Positions 9,403 to 20,608 of a DNA stretch of 64,000 nt are shown in pieces; positions within the stretch are counted from its first letter, which is position 1; each line of letters begins with the position of its first letter. This stretch comes from a virus (Duplodnaviria; Caudoviricetes). The stretch lies in IMG/VR virus record IMGVR_UViG_3300035390_000014, positions 128,001-192,000 of that record; one strand, given 5' to 3'. The notes under the pieces are model-generated. The model was not told where the DNA came from, ran no database searches, and saw nothing but the letters and a program-made list of their open reading frames with translations. The translations under genes and the position numbers were made by a program.

Positions 9403-9472
9403 TTATTAATTCATTATAAAAAACAATTATTATATATATTAATAACTATAATGCAACACATTAATTTGTATT

Positions 9473-9610
9473 TTATAAAAGGTTAAGAACGGAAAGATTA
9501 TACATAAAATAACTCAGGTGGTAGAGTATTTGCCTCAAAAGCAAACTGTCGTTGGTTCAATTCCAACTTTTAACAAAACCTAATCTTTTATATTACTTAA
9601 CCTTTTATAA
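9473..9610 (+). ncRNA. Scaffold RNA Y1 (Y-RNA-like): tRNA-like cargo in D-anticodon-T order, anticodon CAA, acceptor end fused to scaffold
   Basis: 15-bp outer stem ttataaaaggttaag/cttaaccttttataa, AACG/ATATTA loop, inner stem gaaagatta/taatctttt; arms actc/gagt, tttgc-ctCAAaa-gcaaa, gttgg-ttcaatt-ccaac. Confidence 0.85.
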
Positions 9611-9622
9611 GATACAAATTTA

Positions 9623-9761
9623 AATGAGAGAACGAAAAATGATTACAGATTATTACTATGATTAAGTAAAGGTCGCAGGTTCGAGTCCTGTCATAAGGGA
9701 AACTTTATGTAACTCAGTTGGTAGAGATTATATCAACAATCATTTTTATATTACTCTCATT
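9623..9761 (+). ncRNA. Scaffold RNA Y2: permuted cargo (anticodon-T-acceptor-D), acceptor capped by GAAA tetraloop
   Basis: aatgagag/ctctcatt, AACG/ATATTA, aaaaatgatt/aatcattttt; ttact-atGATta-agtaa, gcagg-ttcgagt-cctgt, cataagg-GAAA-ctttatg, D arm actc-agttggta-gag. Confidence 0.88.
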
Positions 9762-9768
9762 ACATTTT

Positions 9769-9863
9769 TGTAGATCGCCGGTGGGTGACTATGCACCTTG
9801 GAAAACATAACTTTAGATGACTGGTAATTATCCGGTATATATCTAATTTCCCGGGGATCTACA
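9769..9863 (+). ncRNA. Unassigned structured RNA inside the array
   Basis: Terminal stem tgtagatc/gatctaca plus ccgg/ccgg; hairpins ggtg/cacc, ttagat/atctaa, actgg/ccggt. Confidence 0.55.
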
Positions 9864-9872
9864 ATACAATTT

Positions 9873-10002
9873 GCCCTCATTGAGAGCGTTTCTACCAAGG
9901 AGCCATAATGTTGAATCTAGATAGATGTTATGGAAATTGATTAGAGCGAGAGGTATTCTCATTGGTCTTAGGATCAGATAGGTTCGAGTCCTATTGGGGG
10001 CT
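9873..10002 (+). ncRNA. tRNA-like RNA whose D arm is replaced by a roughly 80-nt extended hairpin
   Basis: Acceptor gccctca/tgggggc, T arm atagg-ttcgagt-cctat, nested stems tgagag/ttctca, cgtttcta/tagagcg, ccataa/ttatgg; hairpin with loop CTTAGG; no CCA. Confidence 0.65.
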
Positions 10003-10011
10003 GAATAATTT

Positions 10012-10161
10012 TAATGGAAGAACGGAAAATAATTACAGTAGTCCATTAGGAGGACGTGTTTGGAGGTTCGAATCCTTCTTTCCCCACCACACATTTATGG
10101 GGAAATAGGCAAACTGGTACAGCCGCGTAATACAACAATTATTTTTAAATTACTTCCATTA
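10012..10161 (+). ncRNA. Scaffold RNA Y3: permuted tRNA-Leu(UAG)-like cargo with A73-CCA in the acceptor linker
   Basis: taatggaag/cttccatta, AACG/AAATTA, gaaaataatt/aattattttt; gtcc-atTAGga-ggac, ggagg-ttcgaat-ccttc, tttcccc-A-CCA-cacatttat-ggggaaa, D arm ggc-aaactggtaca-gcc. Confidence 0.88.
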
Positions 10162-10240
10162 CTTTTTTATGCCGGGTGATACGTATGTTTATCCATACGC
10201 CGGCTCCATTATTATAATAATAAAAAACAGGGAGATTAGG

Positions 10241-10717
10241 ATGAAAATGAAAACAAGTTTAATTTATGGTTTAATTTTGGTAATGGTTTCTATGTTAGCA
10301 ATTTCATGTAGTCAAAGGAAATTGGTAACAACTCCTGTTTTTAAAATGACTATTGCTGAAGTAAAAGTTGCAGCTCCTGAACCTGCAACAGTAACTGATA
10401 TCAGAGAAAGCATAATGTTTAAATATGATAGCTCTGTTATTGAAGAAATTGAAATGAAAAAGGTTGAAGAAATTGCTGGAGTAATGGCACTTTATTCTGA
10501 TACAGACCTAGTCCTTAAAGGTTATGCAAGTTCAGAAGGTACAACCGAATATAATACTGAACTTTCTTTAGCAAGGGCTGAAGTTGTAAAAGCTGAATTA
10601 CTAAGCCTGGGTGTTTCAGAAGATCGCATTCTTATACTAGGTCATGGAGCAACCAATGAATTTGGTGAGCTTCTAGATTTAAACAGAAGAGTCCTTGTTT
10701 TAAGCATGGATGAATAA
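10241..10717 (+). CDS. OmpA-family peptidoglycan-binding lipoprotein (start moved from 10169)
   Basis: Signal peptide with lipobox LAISC; IMFKYDSS, LKGYASSEG..EYN.ELS.ARA, GHG, LNRRV; RBS before 10241. Confidence 0.85.
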   Translation: MKMKTSLIYGLILVMVSMLAISCSQRKLVTTPVFKMTIAEVKVAAPEPATVTDIRESIMFKYDSSVIEEIEMKKVEEIAGVMALYSDTDLVLKGYASSEGTTEYNTELSLARAEVVKAELLSLGVSEDRILILGHGATNEFGELLDLNRRVLVLSMDE

Positions 10718-10725
10718 CAATATTT

Positions 10726-10810
10726 AAGTCAGAACGAAAAGAGATTACAGTAAAAATTAATGCTTCCAAACAGCAATACAATACAACAATTTCTTTTGAA
10801 TTACTGACTT
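10726..10810 (+). ncRNA. Scaffold RNA Y4: minimal form carrying one anticodon-like hairpin
   Basis: aagtcag/ctgactt, AACG/GAATTA, aaaagagatt/aatttctttt, cargo tgct-tccaaac-agca. Confidence 0.85.
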
Positions 10811-10824
10811 TACATTTTTAAACT

Positions 10825-11090
10825 ATATGAGGTTTGTCGTTTTGAAATATGAAACGAATACTTTAATCAGGATTTGTATTTTGCTATTTTATTGCCCTGG
10901 ATAATACCGGCCCCCAATGGGACTGCCTGGTTACTGGGCCTGCATAACCCACGCGCGTGGTTGGCACTTTAGATCCTGAAAAAGTAAAAAATAGCTGAAA
11001 ACGTGGAGACTATCCACTACTAGATTTGACAACCTAGAAACTAGTACACAGTAAGCTGAGATTGTCAGTCTTAGAATCTGTGCCTCATAT
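10825..11090 (+). ncRNA. Unassigned structured RNA of about 265 nt
   Basis: 8-bp closing stem atatgagg/cctcatat; GC-rich interior with hairpins ccacgc/gcgtgg, gtgga/tccac, tactag/ctagta; no ORF in the track. Confidence 0.5.
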
Positions 11091-11102
11091 TACAATTTTT
11101 AG

Positions 11103-11249
11103 AGAGTTAGAACGAAAAAATATTCCAGATATACAATATAGGTTCAATCCCTATTTTGGGCTCCAAGCATGCCCATGCTGACAATTGGCTGTCAACTTGT
11201 CTTAAACAACAGGTGTAATAAATAAAATATTTTTTAAATTACTAACTCT
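11103..11249 (+). ncRNA. Scaffold RNA Y5: permuted cargo (T-acceptor-D-anticodon) with U73-CCA in the linker
   Basis: agagttag/ctaactct, AACG/AAATTA, aaaaaatatt/aatatttttt; atagg-ttcaatc-cctat, tttgggc-T-CCA-agcat-gcccatg, tgac/gtca, acttgt-cttaaaca-acaggt. Confidence 0.85.
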
Positions 11250-11256
11250 TTTATTT

Positions 11257-11301
11257 AAAATATTCGTCATAACCTTAACCAGTTATGACGAATATTTTTT
11301 T
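11257..11301 (+). terminator. 17-bp hairpin plus T-tract between RNA array and vWA gene
   Basis: aaaatattcgtcataac / gttatgacgaatatttt followed by further Ts. Confidence 0.7.
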
Positions 11302-11350: not shown

Positions 11351-12958
11351 ATGGTTAATTTACCTGTTCGAATTGAAGAAAAATTTGTTAACGCAAATTT
11401 AAGAAAAATTGGGCAAGACATTGAAACAACTATGTCTTTATTTGGCACTGATATGAACAGAGCTACACATTATAACACCAAAGAAGAGTTAGCAGCTATG
11501 AGCGAAAAAGAACATAGAAATATGTTTTCTATTGATCGTTCAATCTATGGCTGTATTGCTTGTCTACCTGGTACAACTGATATTTCTAAAATGAAAGTTG
11601 TTACCAATCTTTTAGGTATCTCATGGGAGCATGGATCTGATTTTCAAGTCACTACTCCTATTCTTACAATAGAACAGGAAAGATTAATCATTGATCATCT
11701 GGTATCAACACTTCCTCCAAATAGAATGATAAATTTGTTTGCTTCTTTTGAGGATAGTCGAGTTAACAATACCCGTATGAGAAAAACAGTTCTTCCTTTT
11801 ATTCTTAACTCAGGTAGTCTTGGGTGGTGGGCAGTTAAGTATAGAAGTAAATTGAAAACTGTATTATCTCATTGTTGGGGTAAAAAGATGACAAGTGTTA
11901 TTGTTTCTATCATTGGGAAAAGAGCAAAGACCCAAAAAGAAAATGATATCCTTGATTCCTTTATTGGTAAGTATATTGTTATCGTTGAGAAGACTAAACG
12001 TAAGGCTATATTTGAATGTCTACGTTTTATCTTTTCTGTTGGTGATAATTTTACCAACCATCTTTTTGTAAATTTCCATGCTTCAAAAACTGATTTCTCA
12101 AAAGCAAAAGGTTTGCCAAAAGAAGTAATTGAAGGTATAAGAGCGGCTTATCACCCAACTCTGGATAAAGCTGAAACCTTAAAAGTTGCTGAGTCGTCAA
12201 TGACTAACAAGGAAAAACGTTTGGTCCAAAACCAGGCTGTTAAAACTGGAGTTAAAATTGAATGGGACCCTAAGACACAACCATTGGTCGAACTCTTTAT
12301 ATACGGGTTTAAAATGGGGTTCACCAATGCAATACATGATGCTATTCTACAAAAATCTGATAGAGCTGGTCAAGCATTGCCATTTACCTATGATAAAGTT
12401 GGGATCATTTGTGACGATAGTTTTTCAATGAGTGGTTCTGAAGATCAGAAACTGAAAGCATTGGCTATAAGTTATGCTACAGTTGAAACATTGAAAGGTG
12501 TTGGTTCTACGACTCTGGTGGCATCTACTTCTGGTAGACGTCCATCATATACCAATAGTCCAATGGGTGAATCAAATCTGGCAAAACCTTTACTTAAATT
12601 GTTAAAGAGAGATGTAGATGTTATCTTTGTTGTATCTGATGGTTATGAAAATGCACCAGAAGGTAGATTTGGAGAAGTGTTGAAAATTGCCAGGGATAAA
12701 GCTGGAGTAACAACCCCAGTATATCATTTTAATCCAGTTGGAGCTGCTGAAAGTAAAGTTGCTGTAAAAAGATTATCTAATGATGTTCCGGTGACTCCGG
12801 TGACTAATCCAGAGAAAATGGGTCTTTCATTATTTAAGACAATGATAGCAGCTGATCCAAAACAAGGGATTGTTAGATTGTTTAACATGGTTCTTCCAGA
12901 ATTGGAAAAGACTAAACTATTATACTCTCGGGTTAACCTAGAAGCTATAAGCGAATAA
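11351..12958 (+). CDS. Helical N-terminal region plus C-terminal vWA domain; Ro60/TROVE-like (inferred); start moved from 11285
   Basis: MIDAS motif DDSFSMSGS, VFVVSDGYEN, VYHFNPV; long predicted-helical N-terminal part; AAGGAG before ATG 11351; vWA solid, TROVE relationship inferred. Confidence 0.6.
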   Translation: MVNLPVRIEEKFVNANLRKIGQDIETTMSLFGTDMNRATHYNTKEELAAMSEKEHRNMFSIDRSIYGCIACLPGTTDISKMKVVTNLLGISWEHGSDFQVTTPILTIEQERLIIDHLVSTLPPNRMINLFASFEDSRVNNTRMRKTVLPFILNSGSLGWWAVKYRSKLKTVLSHCWGKKMTSVIVSIIGKRAKTQKENDILDSFIGKYIVIVEKTKRKAIFECLRFIFSVGDNFTNHLFVNFHASKTDFSKAKGLPKEVIEGIRAAYHPTLDKAETLKVAESSMTNKEKRLVQNQAVKTGVKIEWDPKTQPLVELFIYGFKMGFTNAIHDAILQKSDRAGQALPFTYDKVGIICDDSFSMSGSEDQKLKALAISYATVETLKGVGSTTLVASTSGRRPSYTNSPMGESNLAKPLLKLLKRDVDVIFVVSDGYENAPEGRFGEVLKIARDKAGVTTPVYHFNPVGAAESKVAVKRLSNDVPVTPVTNPEKMGLSLFKTMIAADPKQGIVRLFNMVLPELEKTKLLYSRVNLEAISE

Positions 12959-12968
12959 GGAGAATAAA

Positions 12969-13994
12969 ATGGAAATTACAATTGCAGAAGTGTTGAAAGG
13001 ATGTACTCCTGGTCGTATGCAAAGCGCTGGGTATATGCAGATGGTTCCATTACTATCTGAACCTGATATGATTGATAAAAGATTTGGAGCATTTACTGGA
13101 ATACTATCAAGTACCCATGATTATGGAACAGTTCATTTAGAAAATAAAGAAGACTTTCCAACAATCATGCCCATGGGAACTGCTATTTTAACTACACAAA
13201 GTGCTCAGAATCATGCTCTTGGTAAAGTTAAATTAATGACCAGAATGTCCGAATCAAATATTGATACAGCAGCTTGTATCCAGGATACTCAGGGTGGGAT
13301 CATTAGAAGCGGTGTTCATAGTTTATCAATCCTCCCATATTCAATTCGTGAGAAAGCGTTGGAAATAAAGGATAAGAGAGGTTATAGTAAACTATGGCCT
13401 GCTATCAAAGTATTTAATGAGGAAGTTGGGATTGAAGAAGGTAACTACCGTTCCATGGGTCATCTTGAACATTACCTGGAAACATTTGGTGATAAGCTTG
13501 ACGAGTTCATTGGTCAGTTTGAAATTGTTCCAAATCAAGTCGGAGCAATTATTTTGTTAAATGGTCAAATTGCTGGTGTTGAAAGAGCACCCAATTATGA
13601 TTTCTGGAAAGAATTGTGGAAACCATTGATTCGTGAATGTTATGGTTCTGCATCTTTGGTATTTGCTAAGAAAGGTGAGAAACCTTCACCACCACTTGGA
13701 AGAATGCCGATTAATGATCACTTGGTTAAAAACATTGATGATCTTGAAACTGAATATAATAAGGCTGAAAAACATGAAGAAGATACTGTAAAGAATCTTA
13801 TTCGGAATTTTATTCAGCAACCATTTACTGCCACTCGGGAAGAAAATGAACCCAATGGTACTATTTGTGTGGATCATCTTAGTGGTGGTCAATTCACTGG
13901 ACAGATTGTTAGAGACAGCGCATTTGTTGTTTATGCCAGTCTGGTTCCAGATAAGAATGCTCGATTTAATACAGCAGCAGCATTTACAATTTAA
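12969..13994 (+). CDS. ARPP-like (ARG/Rhodanese-Phosphatase-associated) protein, tightly linked to the vWA gene
   Basis: GRMQSAGYMQMVPL, HDYGTV.LEN, QNHAL, AACIQDTQGG, QVGAIILLNGQIAGVERAP recalled from vWA-associated bacterial proteins; 10 nt after upstream stop. Confidence 0.5.
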   Translation: MEITIAEVLKGCTPGRMQSAGYMQMVPLLSEPDMIDKRFGAFTGILSSTHDYGTVHLENKEDFPTIMPMGTAILTTQSAQNHALGKVKLMTRMSESNIDTAACIQDTQGGIIRSGVHSLSILPYSIREKALEIKDKRGYSKLWPAIKVFNEEVGIEEGNYRSMGHLEHYLETFGDKLDEFIGQFEIVPNQVGAIILLNGQIAGVERAPNYDFWKELWKPLIRECYGSASLVFAKKGEKPSPPLGRMPINDHLVKNIDDLETEYNKAEKHEEDTVKNLIRNFIQQPFTATREENEPNGTICVDHLSGGQFTGQIVRDSAFVVYASLVPDKNARFNTAAAFTI

Positions 13995-19667: not shown

Positions 19668-19743
19668 GCCGGTGTAGCTTATTGGGAGAGCCGAGAACTC
19701 TAAATTCTTGATTGAGTAAGTTCGATCCTTACCATCGGCACCA
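19668..19743 (+). tRNA. Amber suppressor tRNA, anticodon CTA
   Basis: gccggtg/catcggc, A73, CCA, D arm gctt/gagc, gagaa-ctCTAaa-ttctt (anticodon 19700-19702), T arm gtaag-ttcgatc-cttac. Confidence 0.88.
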
Positions 19744-20407: not shown

Positions 20408-20486
20408 GTCCCTGTATACCCTCTGATTACGAACCAGATGAAAGGTTAACGGACACATGGAGGTTCGAATCCTCTCAGGGATACCA
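20408..20486 (+). tRNA. Atypical tRNA-Arg(ACG)-like gene lacking a canonical D arm
   Basis: gtccctg/cagggat + ACCA, T arm ggagg-ttcgaat-cctct, tctga-ttACGaa-ccaga only 7 nt after the acceptor strand, 20-nt segment 3' of the anticodon arm. Confidence 0.7.
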
Positions 20487-20608
20487 AAAGTAAGCACCGG
20501 AGTTATCGGTGAAAAGATTGCTGGTGGAAGTCAACATGTTCATGCGATGGGGTTTAATTGGAGGGTATCTACGAATGCCCTCCAATTATTCCGTTGGAAA
20601 ATTTATAC

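What the first reader, a model, noticed from the sequence alone, without database searches (positions are those of the whole stretch)
10062..11180. Discriminator plus CCA hidden in the acceptor linkers of Y3 and Y5
Seen: Y3 tttcccc-A-CCA-cacatttat-ggggaaa and Y5 tttgggc-T-CCA-agcat-gcccatg; Y2 instead has a sealed GAAA tetraloop. Established: permuted tRNA genes and two-piece tmRNAs mature by RNase P cutting and 3' trimming of such linkers. Inference: Y3 and Y5 could become two-piece, aminoacylatable tRNA domains tethered to a protein scaffold, while Y2 is a permanently uncharged mimic.
Basis: partly seen in the sequence, partly recalled or inferred. Interest (0 to 1): 0.8.

Follow-up and report, generated by a model that had tools for sequence, protein, structure and literature searches.

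The report
Phage Y RNAs with built-in CCA ends
Two of five tRNA-mimicking small RNAs beside a Ro60-like gene of a giant phage carry a ready-made tRNA 3' end (N-CCA) inside the loop that closes their acceptor stem; related phages keep this feature, so these RNAs are probably cut open like tRNA precursors, though no cutting or charging has been shown.

Summary
Y3 has acceptor 3' strand, A, CCA, a 9-nt linker, then the acceptor 5' strand (10079-10105). Y5 has the same layout with U, CCA and a 5-nt linker (11155-11177). Y2 is closed by GAAA.

All five RNAs share one conserved two-helix handle. They lie upstream of a 535-aa protein whose predicted fold matches only Ro60/Rsr, followed by an ARPP-family gene.

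The CCA is not chance. In 160 related loci I found 93 clean circularly permuted tRNA modules. Of these, 55 have CCA exactly after the discriminator, and CCA occurs only twice at any other linker position. The 55 carry 36 different acceptor stems. The rest of the linker is A/U-rich and usually ends in U before G+1. Modules without CCA are mostly tight or GNRA-sealed loops.

Best reading: one RNase P cut plus 3' trimming gives a two-piece Y-like RNA with a free CCA end. This has been shown experimentally for M. smegmatis YrlA (Chen et al. 2014). Cleavage here is inferred. Charging, and LeuRS in particular, is speculative. RNA contigs of a distant relative still bridge the linker.

I class it as a new variant of a known kind. 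The scan has noted this RNA family on other DNA before (e1-4043237, e1-5356825).

The parts
9471..9612 (+). Y1: handle carrying a normal-order tRNA-like body (ARAGORN 'tRNA-Leu CAA' 9503-9575) joined through its acceptor stem; no CCA
   Evidence: MFE -34.8, z -4.5; the only tRNA call in the genome without encoded CCA
9623..9761 (+). Y2: YrlA-like RNA; 7-bp acceptor hairpin 9692-9709 sealed by a GAAA tetraloop
   Evidence: Rfam YrlA 35.8 bits, E 1.3e-5, below the gathering score of 69; z -5.0
10012..10161 (+). Y3: handle plus circularly permuted tRNA module; the handle joins at the anticodon-stem position and there is a small extra hairpin 10041-10055
   Evidence: 41 consensus pairs, 19 with compensatory changes
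10086..10098 (+). Y3 acceptor linker: discriminator A, CCA 10087-10089, A/U-rich 9-nt spacer ending in U. Predicted RNase P cut between 10098 and 10099; predicted mature 3' end at 10089
   Evidence: CCA invariant in 7 of 7 orthologs while the rest of the linker varies and has indels
10726..10810 (+). Y4: handle only, with no tRNA-like module
   Evidence: z -3.6
11103..11249 (+). Y5: handle plus a complete permuted tRNA body (T arm, acceptor, D arm, 5-bp anticodon-type arm with loop CUUAAAC); the handle leaves from the variable-arm position
11162..11170 (+). Y5 acceptor linker: discriminator U, CCA 11163-11165, spacer AGCAU. Predicted RNase P cut between 11170 and 11171; predicted mature 3' end at 11165
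   Evidence: CCA in 5 of 6 orthologs; ACA in L008
11262..11300 (+). A/T-rich hairpin followed by a T run, probably the terminator of the Y array
   Evidence: read from the sequence; not picked up by the consensus scan
11351..12958 (+). 535-aa Ro60-like ring protein (helical repeat ring plus vWA domain with a DxSxS motif)
   Evidence: pLDDT 86.7; the top 13 Foldseek hits are all Ro60/Rsr/TROVE; no Pfam TROVE match
12969..13994 (+). ARPP-1/ARPP-2 family protein, the gene immediately downstream of the Ro60-like gene
   Evidence: PF20208, E 8.6e-18; PF22549, E 9.7e-9

Best explanation
Y3 and Y5 are Y-RNA-like partners of a diverged phage Ro60-type protein. Their effector module is a circularly permuted tRNA whose acceptor stem is closed by a tRNA-gene-style 3' end: discriminator, CCA, then a short unstructured A/U-rich trailer ending in U before G+1. 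The most likely pathway is that host RNase P cuts once, 5' of G+1 (after 10098 in Y3, after 11170 in Y5). The 9- or 5-nt trailer left on the other strand is then trimmed by 3' exonucleases back to CCA, and a CCA-adding enzyme can repair over-trimming. The product would be a two-piece RNA (about 75+61 nt for Y3, 62+77 nt for Y5), held together by the handle and the acceptor stem and exposing a genuine tRNA 3' end on the Ro-like particle. Shown here: the layout, its conservation, the covarying structure, and the Ro60-like fold of the neighbouring gene. Inferred: the cut, the trimming, binding to the protein, and any use of the free CCA end (charging, or recognition by tRNA-binding factors or tRNA-targeting nucleases).
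For: (1) Position-specific conservation. 55 of 93 clean modules, and 48 of 77 with perfect 7-bp stems, have CCA directly after the discriminator; CCA occurs at any other linker offset only twice; the 55 carry 36 different acceptor 3' strands. About 2.5 of 109 would be expected by chance. (2) Orthologs. CCA is invariant in 7 of 7 Y3 copies while 4 of 7 acceptor pairs show double compensatory changes and the linker has substitutions and indels. (3) Substrate-like flanks. U at -1 in 46 of 55 N-CCA modules against 11 of 38 others; G at +1 in 43 of 55; after CCA the linker is T158 A151 C33 G10. The T loop and the GG in the D loop are canonical. (4) Two classes. Modules without CCA mostly have 4-6-nt or GNRA-sealed loops such as GAAA, GCAA, GTAA and GC-GAAA-GC. 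(5) This phage encodes CCA on all 25 canonical tRNA genes and on its tmRNA. Across loci, N-CCA modules go with CCA-encoding tRNA genes (26:8 against 44:46, p 0.008). (6) The modules are not recent copies of the phage's tRNAs. (7) Precedent. M. smegmatis YrlA is cut by RNase P in vitro and in vivo, gains a CCA tail, and both halves co-purify with Rsr (PMC4201824). (8) The two pieces are predicted to stay paired (ddG -17.6 and -11.3 kcal/mol). (9) The phage has a PolyA_pol/CCA-adding-type gene. (10) Modules lie on the strand of the Ro-like gene and upstream of it: 79 upstream, 15 downstream, 5 on the opposite strand, median 1.25 kb upstream.
Against: There are no end-mapping data for this phage. 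In a distant relative (L133, about 26% protein identity), RNA-library contigs from four peat metatranscriptome studies run straight across its G-CCA-AAATT linker. So uncut molecules exist there; contigs cannot say what share is cut. Some orthologs have lost the CCA (L008 ACA, L114 TCA, L124 CCC), so it is not indispensable. Linkers of only 5-9 nt join the CCA to position -1, and it is untested whether RNase P accepts so tight a loop. The counts are not phylogenetically independent.
Confidence: 0.55

Rival explanations
1. The loop stays closed. N-CCA is kept because an intact, tethered copy of the tRNA 3' end is what a partner recognises, for example the Ro-like/ARPP particle, a CCA-adding enzyme, RNase P acting as a binder, or a host tRNA-targeting defence nuclease that the RNA decoys.
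For: RNA-library contigs bridge the N-CCA linker of L133 in four runs. Most described YrlA RNAs are closed (10.1101/312249). The linkers are short, mostly 7-13 nt including N-CCA.
Against: A single-stranded, G-poor trailer ending in U before G+1 looks like a tRNA-gene trailer and leader, not a designed loop. Where sealing is evidently wanted, the family uses GNRA or 4-6-nt loops instead. M. smegmatis YrlA shows that such hairpins are opened in vivo.
Confidence: 0.25
2. The CCA is a relic without function. Permuted modules arise from tandem tRNA-gene duplications, which automatically place N-CCA plus the intergenic spacer between the two acceptor strands.
For: This phage's tRNA genes all encode CCA, and N-CCA modules correlate with CCA-encoding tRNA genes in the same locus. 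Occasional single-base decay of the CCA is seen.
Against: The modules are not similar to any current tRNA of the phage. The CCA persists while acceptor stems turn over completely (36 stems) and linkers gain indels. Its information content (1.0, 0.65 and 0.75 bits at the three positions) exceeds that of most acceptor positions.
Confidence: 0.08
3. Y3 and Y5 are precursors of real decoding tRNAs. The handle is removed and the ends are ligated, as for circularly permuted tRNA genes of red algae, or the nicked two-piece tRNA itself works on the ribosome.
For: Y5-type modules have a full 5-bp anticodon-type arm with U33 and a purine at 37, and 50 modules have this arm. N-CCA is encoded. The window loops read as Leu anticodons (UAA, UAG, CAA).
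Against: The anticodon triplet changes among close orthologs (UAA, AAC, AAU, UAU, CAA) and often starts with A. The phage already has class II tRNA-Leu(UAA) and tRNA-Leu(UAG) genes. The handle is conserved, covaries and stays beside the Ro-like gene. It has no bulge-helix-bulge shape.
Confidence: 0.07

Closest known systems
M. smegmatis YrlA (Chen et al. 2014, RNA 20:1715, PMC4201824)
   Same: A Y RNA with a tRNA-like module and a 7-bp acceptor hairpin. RNase P opens the hairpin, the upstream half ends in CCA, and both halves stay on the Ro60 ortholog. The authors already raised possible aminoacylation.
   Different: There the CA of the CCA is added after transcription and the case was treated as an exception. 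Here the full N-CCA plus an A/U trailer is written in the gene and recurs in 55 distinct modules. The protein partner is a far more diverged Ro60 branch with an ARPP neighbour. Many modules also keep an anticodon-type arm. Processing has not been shown here.
Salmonella/Deinococcus YrlA-type Y RNAs (Rfam RF02553; Wang et al. 2018, 10.1101/312249)
   Same: A stem formed by the 5' and 3' ends plus a permuted tRNA-like T arm, acceptor and D arm, encoded next to a Ro60 gene. Y2 matches the model at E 1.3e-5.
   Different: These have a 6-bp acceptor closed by a small loop, no CCA and no anticodon loop. The window RNAs score below the Rfam gathering score (35.8 and 17.3 against 69 bits). The handle motif GAACGRAAA resembles GNCGAAN0-1G but does not equal it.
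Two-piece (circularly permuted) tmRNA genes of alpha-proteobacteria and cyanobacteria (Rfam RF04321; my knowledge of Keiler et al. 2000)
   Same: The gene order is T arm, acceptor 3' strand, CCA, intervening segment, acceptor 5' strand. Maturation excises the segment and gives a two-piece, chargeable tRNA-like domain.
   Different: There is no mRNA-like tag frame and no pseudoknots. The Rfam match is only 16.4 bits (gathering score 47). The phage has an ordinary one-piece tmRNA elsewhere.
Circularly permuted tRNA genes of Cyanidioschyzon merolae and some archaea (Soma et al. 2007; cited in 10.1101/312249)
   Same: The 3' half lies upstream of the 5' half, and the acceptor is closed by a linker that RNase P and a 3' nuclease open.
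   Different: Those use a bulge-helix-bulge motif and splicing ligation to form a circular intermediate and yield normal decoding tRNAs. Here the termini form a conserved protein-type handle and the anticodons are not conserved.

Membership tests
YrlA-type Y RNA (Rfam RF02553) | Score at or above the Rfam gathering threshold (69 bits) | tested here: not met
   Y2 35.8 bits (E 1.3e-5), Y3 17.3 bits (E 3), Y5 no match
YrlA-type Y RNA (Rfam RF02553) | Terminal stem formed by the 5' and 3' ends, carrying a permuted tRNA-like T arm, acceptor hairpin and D arm | tested here: met
   (handle, T arm, acceptor and D arm with compensatory changes)
YrlA-type Y RNA (Rfam RF02553) | Encoded next to a Ro60/Rsr gene | tested here: met
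   Met at fold level only. The AF2 model (pLDDT 86.7) hits Ro60/Rsr/TROVE structures at ranks 1-13. Pfam TROVE is not matched. Modules lie upstream on the same strand in relatives.
YrlA-type Y RNA (Rfam RF02553) | Conserved Ro-binding motif GNCGAAN0-1G in the 5' strand of the stem (PMC4201824) | tested here: inconclusive
   The window has GAACGRAAA, and relatives have GACUGNAA or GAAAACGNAAAG. This is similar to the published motif but not the same.
YrlA-type Y RNA (Rfam RF02553) | Physical binding to the Ro60 ortholog | not testable with these tools
   Needs co-immunoprecipitation or a gel shift.
RNase P-opened, CCA-tailed two-piece Y RNA (M. smegmatis type) | Seven-base-pair acceptor stem stacked on a 5-bp T stem | tested here: met
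   Y3 has 7/7 pairs. Y5 has 6/7 counting one G-U, with one U-U. Of the 93 clean modules, 77 have perfect 7-bp stems.
RNase P-opened, CCA-tailed two-piece Y RNA (M. smegmatis type) | CCA following the discriminator on the upstream half | tested here: met
   It is encoded in the gene. In M. smegmatis the CA is added later.
RNase P-opened, CCA-tailed two-piece Y RNA (M. smegmatis type) | Cleavage at G+1 in vivo or in vitro | not testable with these tools
   Only contig-level RNA data for a distant relative were available. These bridge the linker and cannot quantify cutting.
Circularly permuted tRNA gene (decoding tRNA precursor) | Bulge-helix-bulge motif at the joined termini for splicing-type excision | tested here: not met
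   The consensus handle is a 9-bp stem, then a 4 x 6-nt internal loop, then a 10-bp helix, which is not a 3-4-3 bulge-helix-bulge.
Circularly permuted tRNA gene (decoding tRNA precursor) | Anticodon conserved among orthologs | tested here: not met
   Y5 orthologs: UAA, AAC, AAU, UAA, CAA, UAU. Y3 orthologs: UAG, UUG, UCC, and one 6-nt loop.
Two-piece tmRNA (Rfam RF04321) | Rfam gathering score, and a tag reading frame | tested here: not met
   16.4 bits against 47 at 10062-10107. ARAGORN finds no tmRNA here but finds a one-piece tmRNA elsewhere in the genome.

The most novel reading that the evidence does not exclude
The handle-bearing modules are class II-like tRNAs in which the Ro-binding handle takes the place of the long variable arm. 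After RNase P opening they are aminoacylated by a host synthetase that does not read the anticodon (Leu- or Ser-type). The phage's Ro-like/ARPP particle then carries a charged tRNA end. This could serve as bait or sensor for host defences that attack tRNA ends or anticodon loops, or as a donor in a non-ribosomal reaction.
Probability: 0.2. Interest if true: 0.85.

Novelty: new variant of a known kind. Interest (0 to 1): 0.6.

Why it matters
What the tRNA-like domain of bacterial Y RNAs does is still open. The published view is that most are sealed mimics without a CCA end, with M. smegmatis as an odd exception. Here a large, mostly phage-borne branch writes a complete tRNA 3' end into the gene and keeps it under selection, next to sealed paralogs in the same array. 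That suggests a free, or at least authentic, CCA end is a working part of these particles. It also gives precise and cheap predictions: two cut sites per RNA and defined half sizes, with Y2 as a built-in negative control. Finally, it shows that huge phages carry arrays of tRNA look-alikes that ordinary tRNA finders miss or miscall, as with Y1, which ARAGORN calls tRNA-Leu.

Tried and rejected
- **Protein searches by sequence.** The 535-aa protein gave no Pfam, PHROG or PDB sequence match. Pfam also gave nothing for distant homologs that their sources name TROVE. The fold search settled the question.
- **Single-protein locus scan.** A scan of viral contigs with the single protein found no relative. 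Scans with the alignment worked.
- **RNA runs for the window.** No RNA holder was listed.
- **RNA contigs for relative L133.** Only Logan contigs were available, so starts, ends and levels cannot be read. In run X2 the spacer 2487-2530 has no cover, and contigs carry adapter letters at 2486, 2531 and 2982. In run X1 adapter letters follow 2999, near a terminator. I take this only as a hint that the library holds processed RNA. I do not count it as evidence about the linker.
- **Families not found.** No RtcB, class I (Leu-type) or class IIb (Ser-type) synthetase family was found in the record. The record is about 65% complete, so this says nothing.
- **Recent duplication from the phage's own tRNAs.** Rejected: only generic tRNA similarity was found.
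- **LeuRS identity.** Not supported: discriminators and anticodon-type loops vary among orthologs.
- **Tandem ordinary tRNA genes as an artefact of my scan.** 16 such hits were identified and removed.
- **Cultured phage with this protein.** Only one uncultured 462-kb phage record was found (LR756500.1).
- **Failures and gaps.** One script timed out. Sim et al. 2020 and Burroughs & Aravind 2016 are not held in the library. The consensus promoter/terminator scan was uninformative.
Full report
**What is in the window.** The window is bases 128001-192000 of a 202.7-kb IMG/VR virus record. The record has 30% G+C and is estimated 65% complete. It carries 25 canonical tRNA genes and a tmRNA.

Between 9471 and 11249, five RNAs on the + strand share one base, which I call the handle. 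It consists of:
- a terminal stem;
- an internal loop, GAAC on the 5' strand against AAUUAC on the 3' strand;
- a 10-bp A/U helix;
- a conserved ACAG.

The handle motif occurs four times against 0.28 expected, and nowhere else in the record. All five RNAs fold better than shuffled sequence (z -2.5 to -5.0).

The five differ in what the handle carries:
- Y1 (9471-9612) carries a normal-order tRNA-like body joined through its acceptor stem.
- Y2 (9623-9761) matches Rfam YrlA at 35.8 bits (E 1.3e-5, below the gathering score of 69).
- Y3 (10012-10161) and Y5 (11103-11249) carry circularly permuted tRNA modules.
- Y4 (10726-10810) is the handle alone.

An A/T-rich hairpin followed by a T run (11262-11300) comes after Y5.

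**The neighbouring genes.** The next gene (11351-12958, 535 aa) has no Pfam, PHROG or PDB sequence match. Its AlphaFold model, built from a 58-sequence alignment, has pLDDT 86.7 and pTM 0.79. The model matches only Ro60-type structures at Foldseek ranks 1-13: Xenopus and human Ro60, Deinococcus Rsr, a TROVE domain, and Thermus phage phiLo Ro60, with probability 1.00 over the full length. The gene after it is an ARPP-1/ARPP-2 family member.

**The observation.** It is exactly as described.

| RNA | Acceptor 3' strand | Discriminator | CCA | Spacer | Acceptor 5' strand |
|---|---|---|---|---|---|
| Y3 | TTTCCCC 10079-10085 | A 10086 | 10087-10089 | CACATTTAT 10090-10098 | GGGGAAA 10099-10105 |
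| Y5 | TTTGGGC 11155-11161 | T 11162 | 11163-11165 | AGCAT 11166-11170 | GCCCATG 11171-11177 |

In both, a T arm lies directly upstream and a D arm directly downstream. Y2 has CATAAGG-GAAA-CTTTATG (9692-9709).

**Is the CCA more than chance?** The Ro-like protein has 95 homologs in the first search. With an alignment of them I fetched 160 loci from metagenomes and viral contigs, covering 25-79% protein identity.

I scanned these for a fixed layout: a T arm with loop NTCRANN, a 7-nt strand, a linker of 3-25 nt, a complementary 7-nt strand (at least 6 pairs), and a D arm. The scan found 139 modules on the strand of the protein gene and 6 on the other strand. In the 87 loci with full flanks, 79 modules lie upstream of the gene, 15 downstream and 5 on the opposite strand, with a median of 1.25 kb upstream.

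After removing duplicates and 16 hits that overlap ordinary, mostly tandem, tRNA genes, 93 modules remain. Among these:
- 55 have CCA exactly after the discriminator, and 48 of the 77 with perfect stems do.
- CCA occurs at any other linker offset only twice.
- About 2.5 of the 109 modules counted before the overlap filter would have it by chance, from linker composition.
- The 55 carry 36 different acceptor 3' strands, so the stems have turned over while the CCA stayed.
- After the CCA the linker is T158 A151 C33 G10.
- The linker ends in U in 46 of 55 modules, against 11 of 38 modules without CCA.
- The next base is G in 43 of 55.
- The total linker is mostly 7-13 nt.

Modules without CCA are mostly 4-6-nt loops or GNRA-sealed extensions such as GAAA, GCAA, GTAA and GC-GAAA-GC. 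A few look like decayed CCA (ACA, TCA, CCC).

Among close orthologs:
- **Y3:** CCA is invariant in 7 of 7 copies. Four of the seven acceptor pairs show double compensatory changes, and the linker has substitutions and indels. Of 41 consensus pairs, 19 show compensatory changes.
- **Y5:** 5 of 6 orthologs keep CCA, and L008 has ACA. The handle, T arm and acceptor are again supported, with 10 of 28 pairs compensatory.

**Context that bears on the mechanism.**
- Every canonical tRNA gene of this phage (25 of 25) and its tmRNA encode CCA. The only tRNA call without it is the Y1 body.
- Across loci, N-CCA modules go with CCA-encoding tRNA genes: 26:8 against 44:46, odds ratio 3.4, p 0.008.
- The modules are not recent copies of the phage's tRNAs; only generic similarity was found.
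- The phage encodes a PolyA_pol/CCA-adding-type enzyme (102 bits).
- Predicted two-piece products would be 75+61 nt (Y3) and 62+77 nt (Y5). They would stay paired, with ddG -17.6 and -11.3 kcal/mol relative to the separately folded pieces.

**Architecture.**
- **Y5-type.** A complete anticodon-type arm follows the D arm: a 5-bp stem and a 7-nt loop with U33 and a purine at 37. Fifty distinct modules have this arm. The handle therefore leaves the body where class II tRNAs carry their long variable arm. The D arm is of the 3-bp, 11-nt-loop type typical of class II tRNAs, a comparison from my own knowledge. The same wiring is seen down to 26% protein identity.
- **Y3-type.** The handle joins at the anticodon-stem position as in YrlA, with an extra 3-4-bp hairpin.
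- **Anticodon-type triplets.** They are not conserved among orthologs. Y5 orthologs read UAA, AAC, AAU, UAA, CAA and UAU. Y3 orthologs read UAG, UUG and UCC, and one has a 6-nt loop. The phage also has ordinary class II tRNA-Leu(UAA) and tRNA-Leu(UAG) genes.

These points argue against decoding tRNAs and against a specific LeuRS identity. Y5 has U73, while E. coli LeuRS requires A73 (my knowledge).

**What is known.**
- Chen et al. 2014 (PMC4201824) showed that M. smegmatis YrlA has a 7-bp acceptor stem, is cut by RNase P RNA in vitro at the tRNA-like site and in vivo, that the upstream half gains a CA to end in CCA, and that both halves co-precipitate with Rsr. The authors noted that it could potentially be aminoacylated.
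- Salmonella and Deinococcus Y RNAs are not cut. Wang et al. 2018 (10.1101/312249) describe YrlA as lacking a free CCA end and an anticodon loop, with most members likely sealed.
- The preference of bacterial RNase P for U at -1 and its pairing with the 3' RCCA are established knowledge (see PMC1874595 for the CCA contact).
- I found no paper describing gene-encoded N-CCA linkers in Y-like RNAs or this phage branch.
- A jumbo-phage survey mentions only that some carry a ROT/TROVE protein with a tRNA-like partner (PMC7824862).

**RNA data.** No RNA run was listed for the window. For the distant relative L133 (a peat phage; module with G-CCA-AAATT at 2578-2586), contigs from four metatranscriptome studies cover the array and bridge the linker. 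Uncut RNA therefore exists there. Contigs cannot give the share that is cut, and this is not the window's phage.

**Verdict.**
- The best-supported mechanism is tRNA-type opening: one RNase P cut, exonucleolytic trimming to the encoded CCA, and CCA repair if needed. It would give a two-piece Y-like RNA on a Ro60-like particle (confidence 0.55).
- Sealed paralogs such as Y2 sit in the same array.
- Cleavage, protein binding and any charging are inferred.
- Rivals: a closed loop in which N-CCA is a recognition element (0.25), a relic of tandem duplication (0.08), and true tRNA precursors (0.07).
- Relative to M. smegmatis YrlA this is a new variant of a known kind.
- The same RNA family has been noted by this scan on other DNA, including permuted modules with CCA (e1-4043237) and modules opened in the variable arm (e1-5356825). 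Those notes agree with what I tested here.

Noticed in passing
window 9873-10002: A tRNA-like gene between Y2 and Y3: 7-bp acceptor (GCCCTCA/TGGGGGC), T arm at 9978-9994 and an insert of about 90 nt. It has no CCA here, but the L013 ortholog has ACCA. ARAGORN and Rfam do not call it.
   Followed up: partly
window 9768-9864: A strongly folding branched hairpin of about 97 nt (MFE -35.4 kcal/mol, z -4.7) directly after Y2. Its function is unknown.
   Followed up: no
window 10880-11095: A G+C-rich stretch just upstream of Y5. Its 3' end (ATCTGTGCCTCAT) is conserved in L005, L008 and L025, so it may be another small RNA or a processing element.
   Followed up: no
window 10241-10717: An OmpA-family lipoprotein gene (Pfam E 1.4e-14) sits inside the Y-RNA array, between Y3 and Y4.
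   Followed up: no
window 20408-20489: An odd tRNA-like element with a 7-bp acceptor, a canonical T arm and an encoded ACCA, but an irregular D/anticodon region. ARAGORN and Rfam both miss it.
   Followed up: no
G000:C1:109075-109464 (outside the window): A phage-encoded one-piece tmRNA (ARAGORN tag ADNFADDYALAIAA). All 25 canonical tRNA genes of the phage, and this tmRNA, encode CCA.
   Followed up: partly
window 19668-19743: A suppressor-type tRNA with anticodon CUA, which ARAGORN labels Pyl. It hints at UAG reassignment or read-through in this phage.
   Followed up: no
G000:C1:100139-100486 (outside the window): A PolyA_pol/CCA-adding-type nucleotidyltransferase gene (PF01743, 102 bits) in a 436-aa open frame.
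   Followed up: no
L133:2348-2486: In a peat-phage relative, a normal-order tRNA-like RNA carries the handle inside its body. One RNA-library contig ends, followed by adapter letters, 1-2 nt past its discriminator (A-CA).
   Followed up: partly
related loci, e.g. L115:3493, L144:2575, L015:3123, L120:3461: The anticodon-type loops CUCUUAA (Lys-like CUU) and CUAUUAA (anticodon AUU, unusual for real tRNAs) recur in modules from distantly related loci. This suggests the loops are recognised by something other than the ribosome.
   Followed up: no
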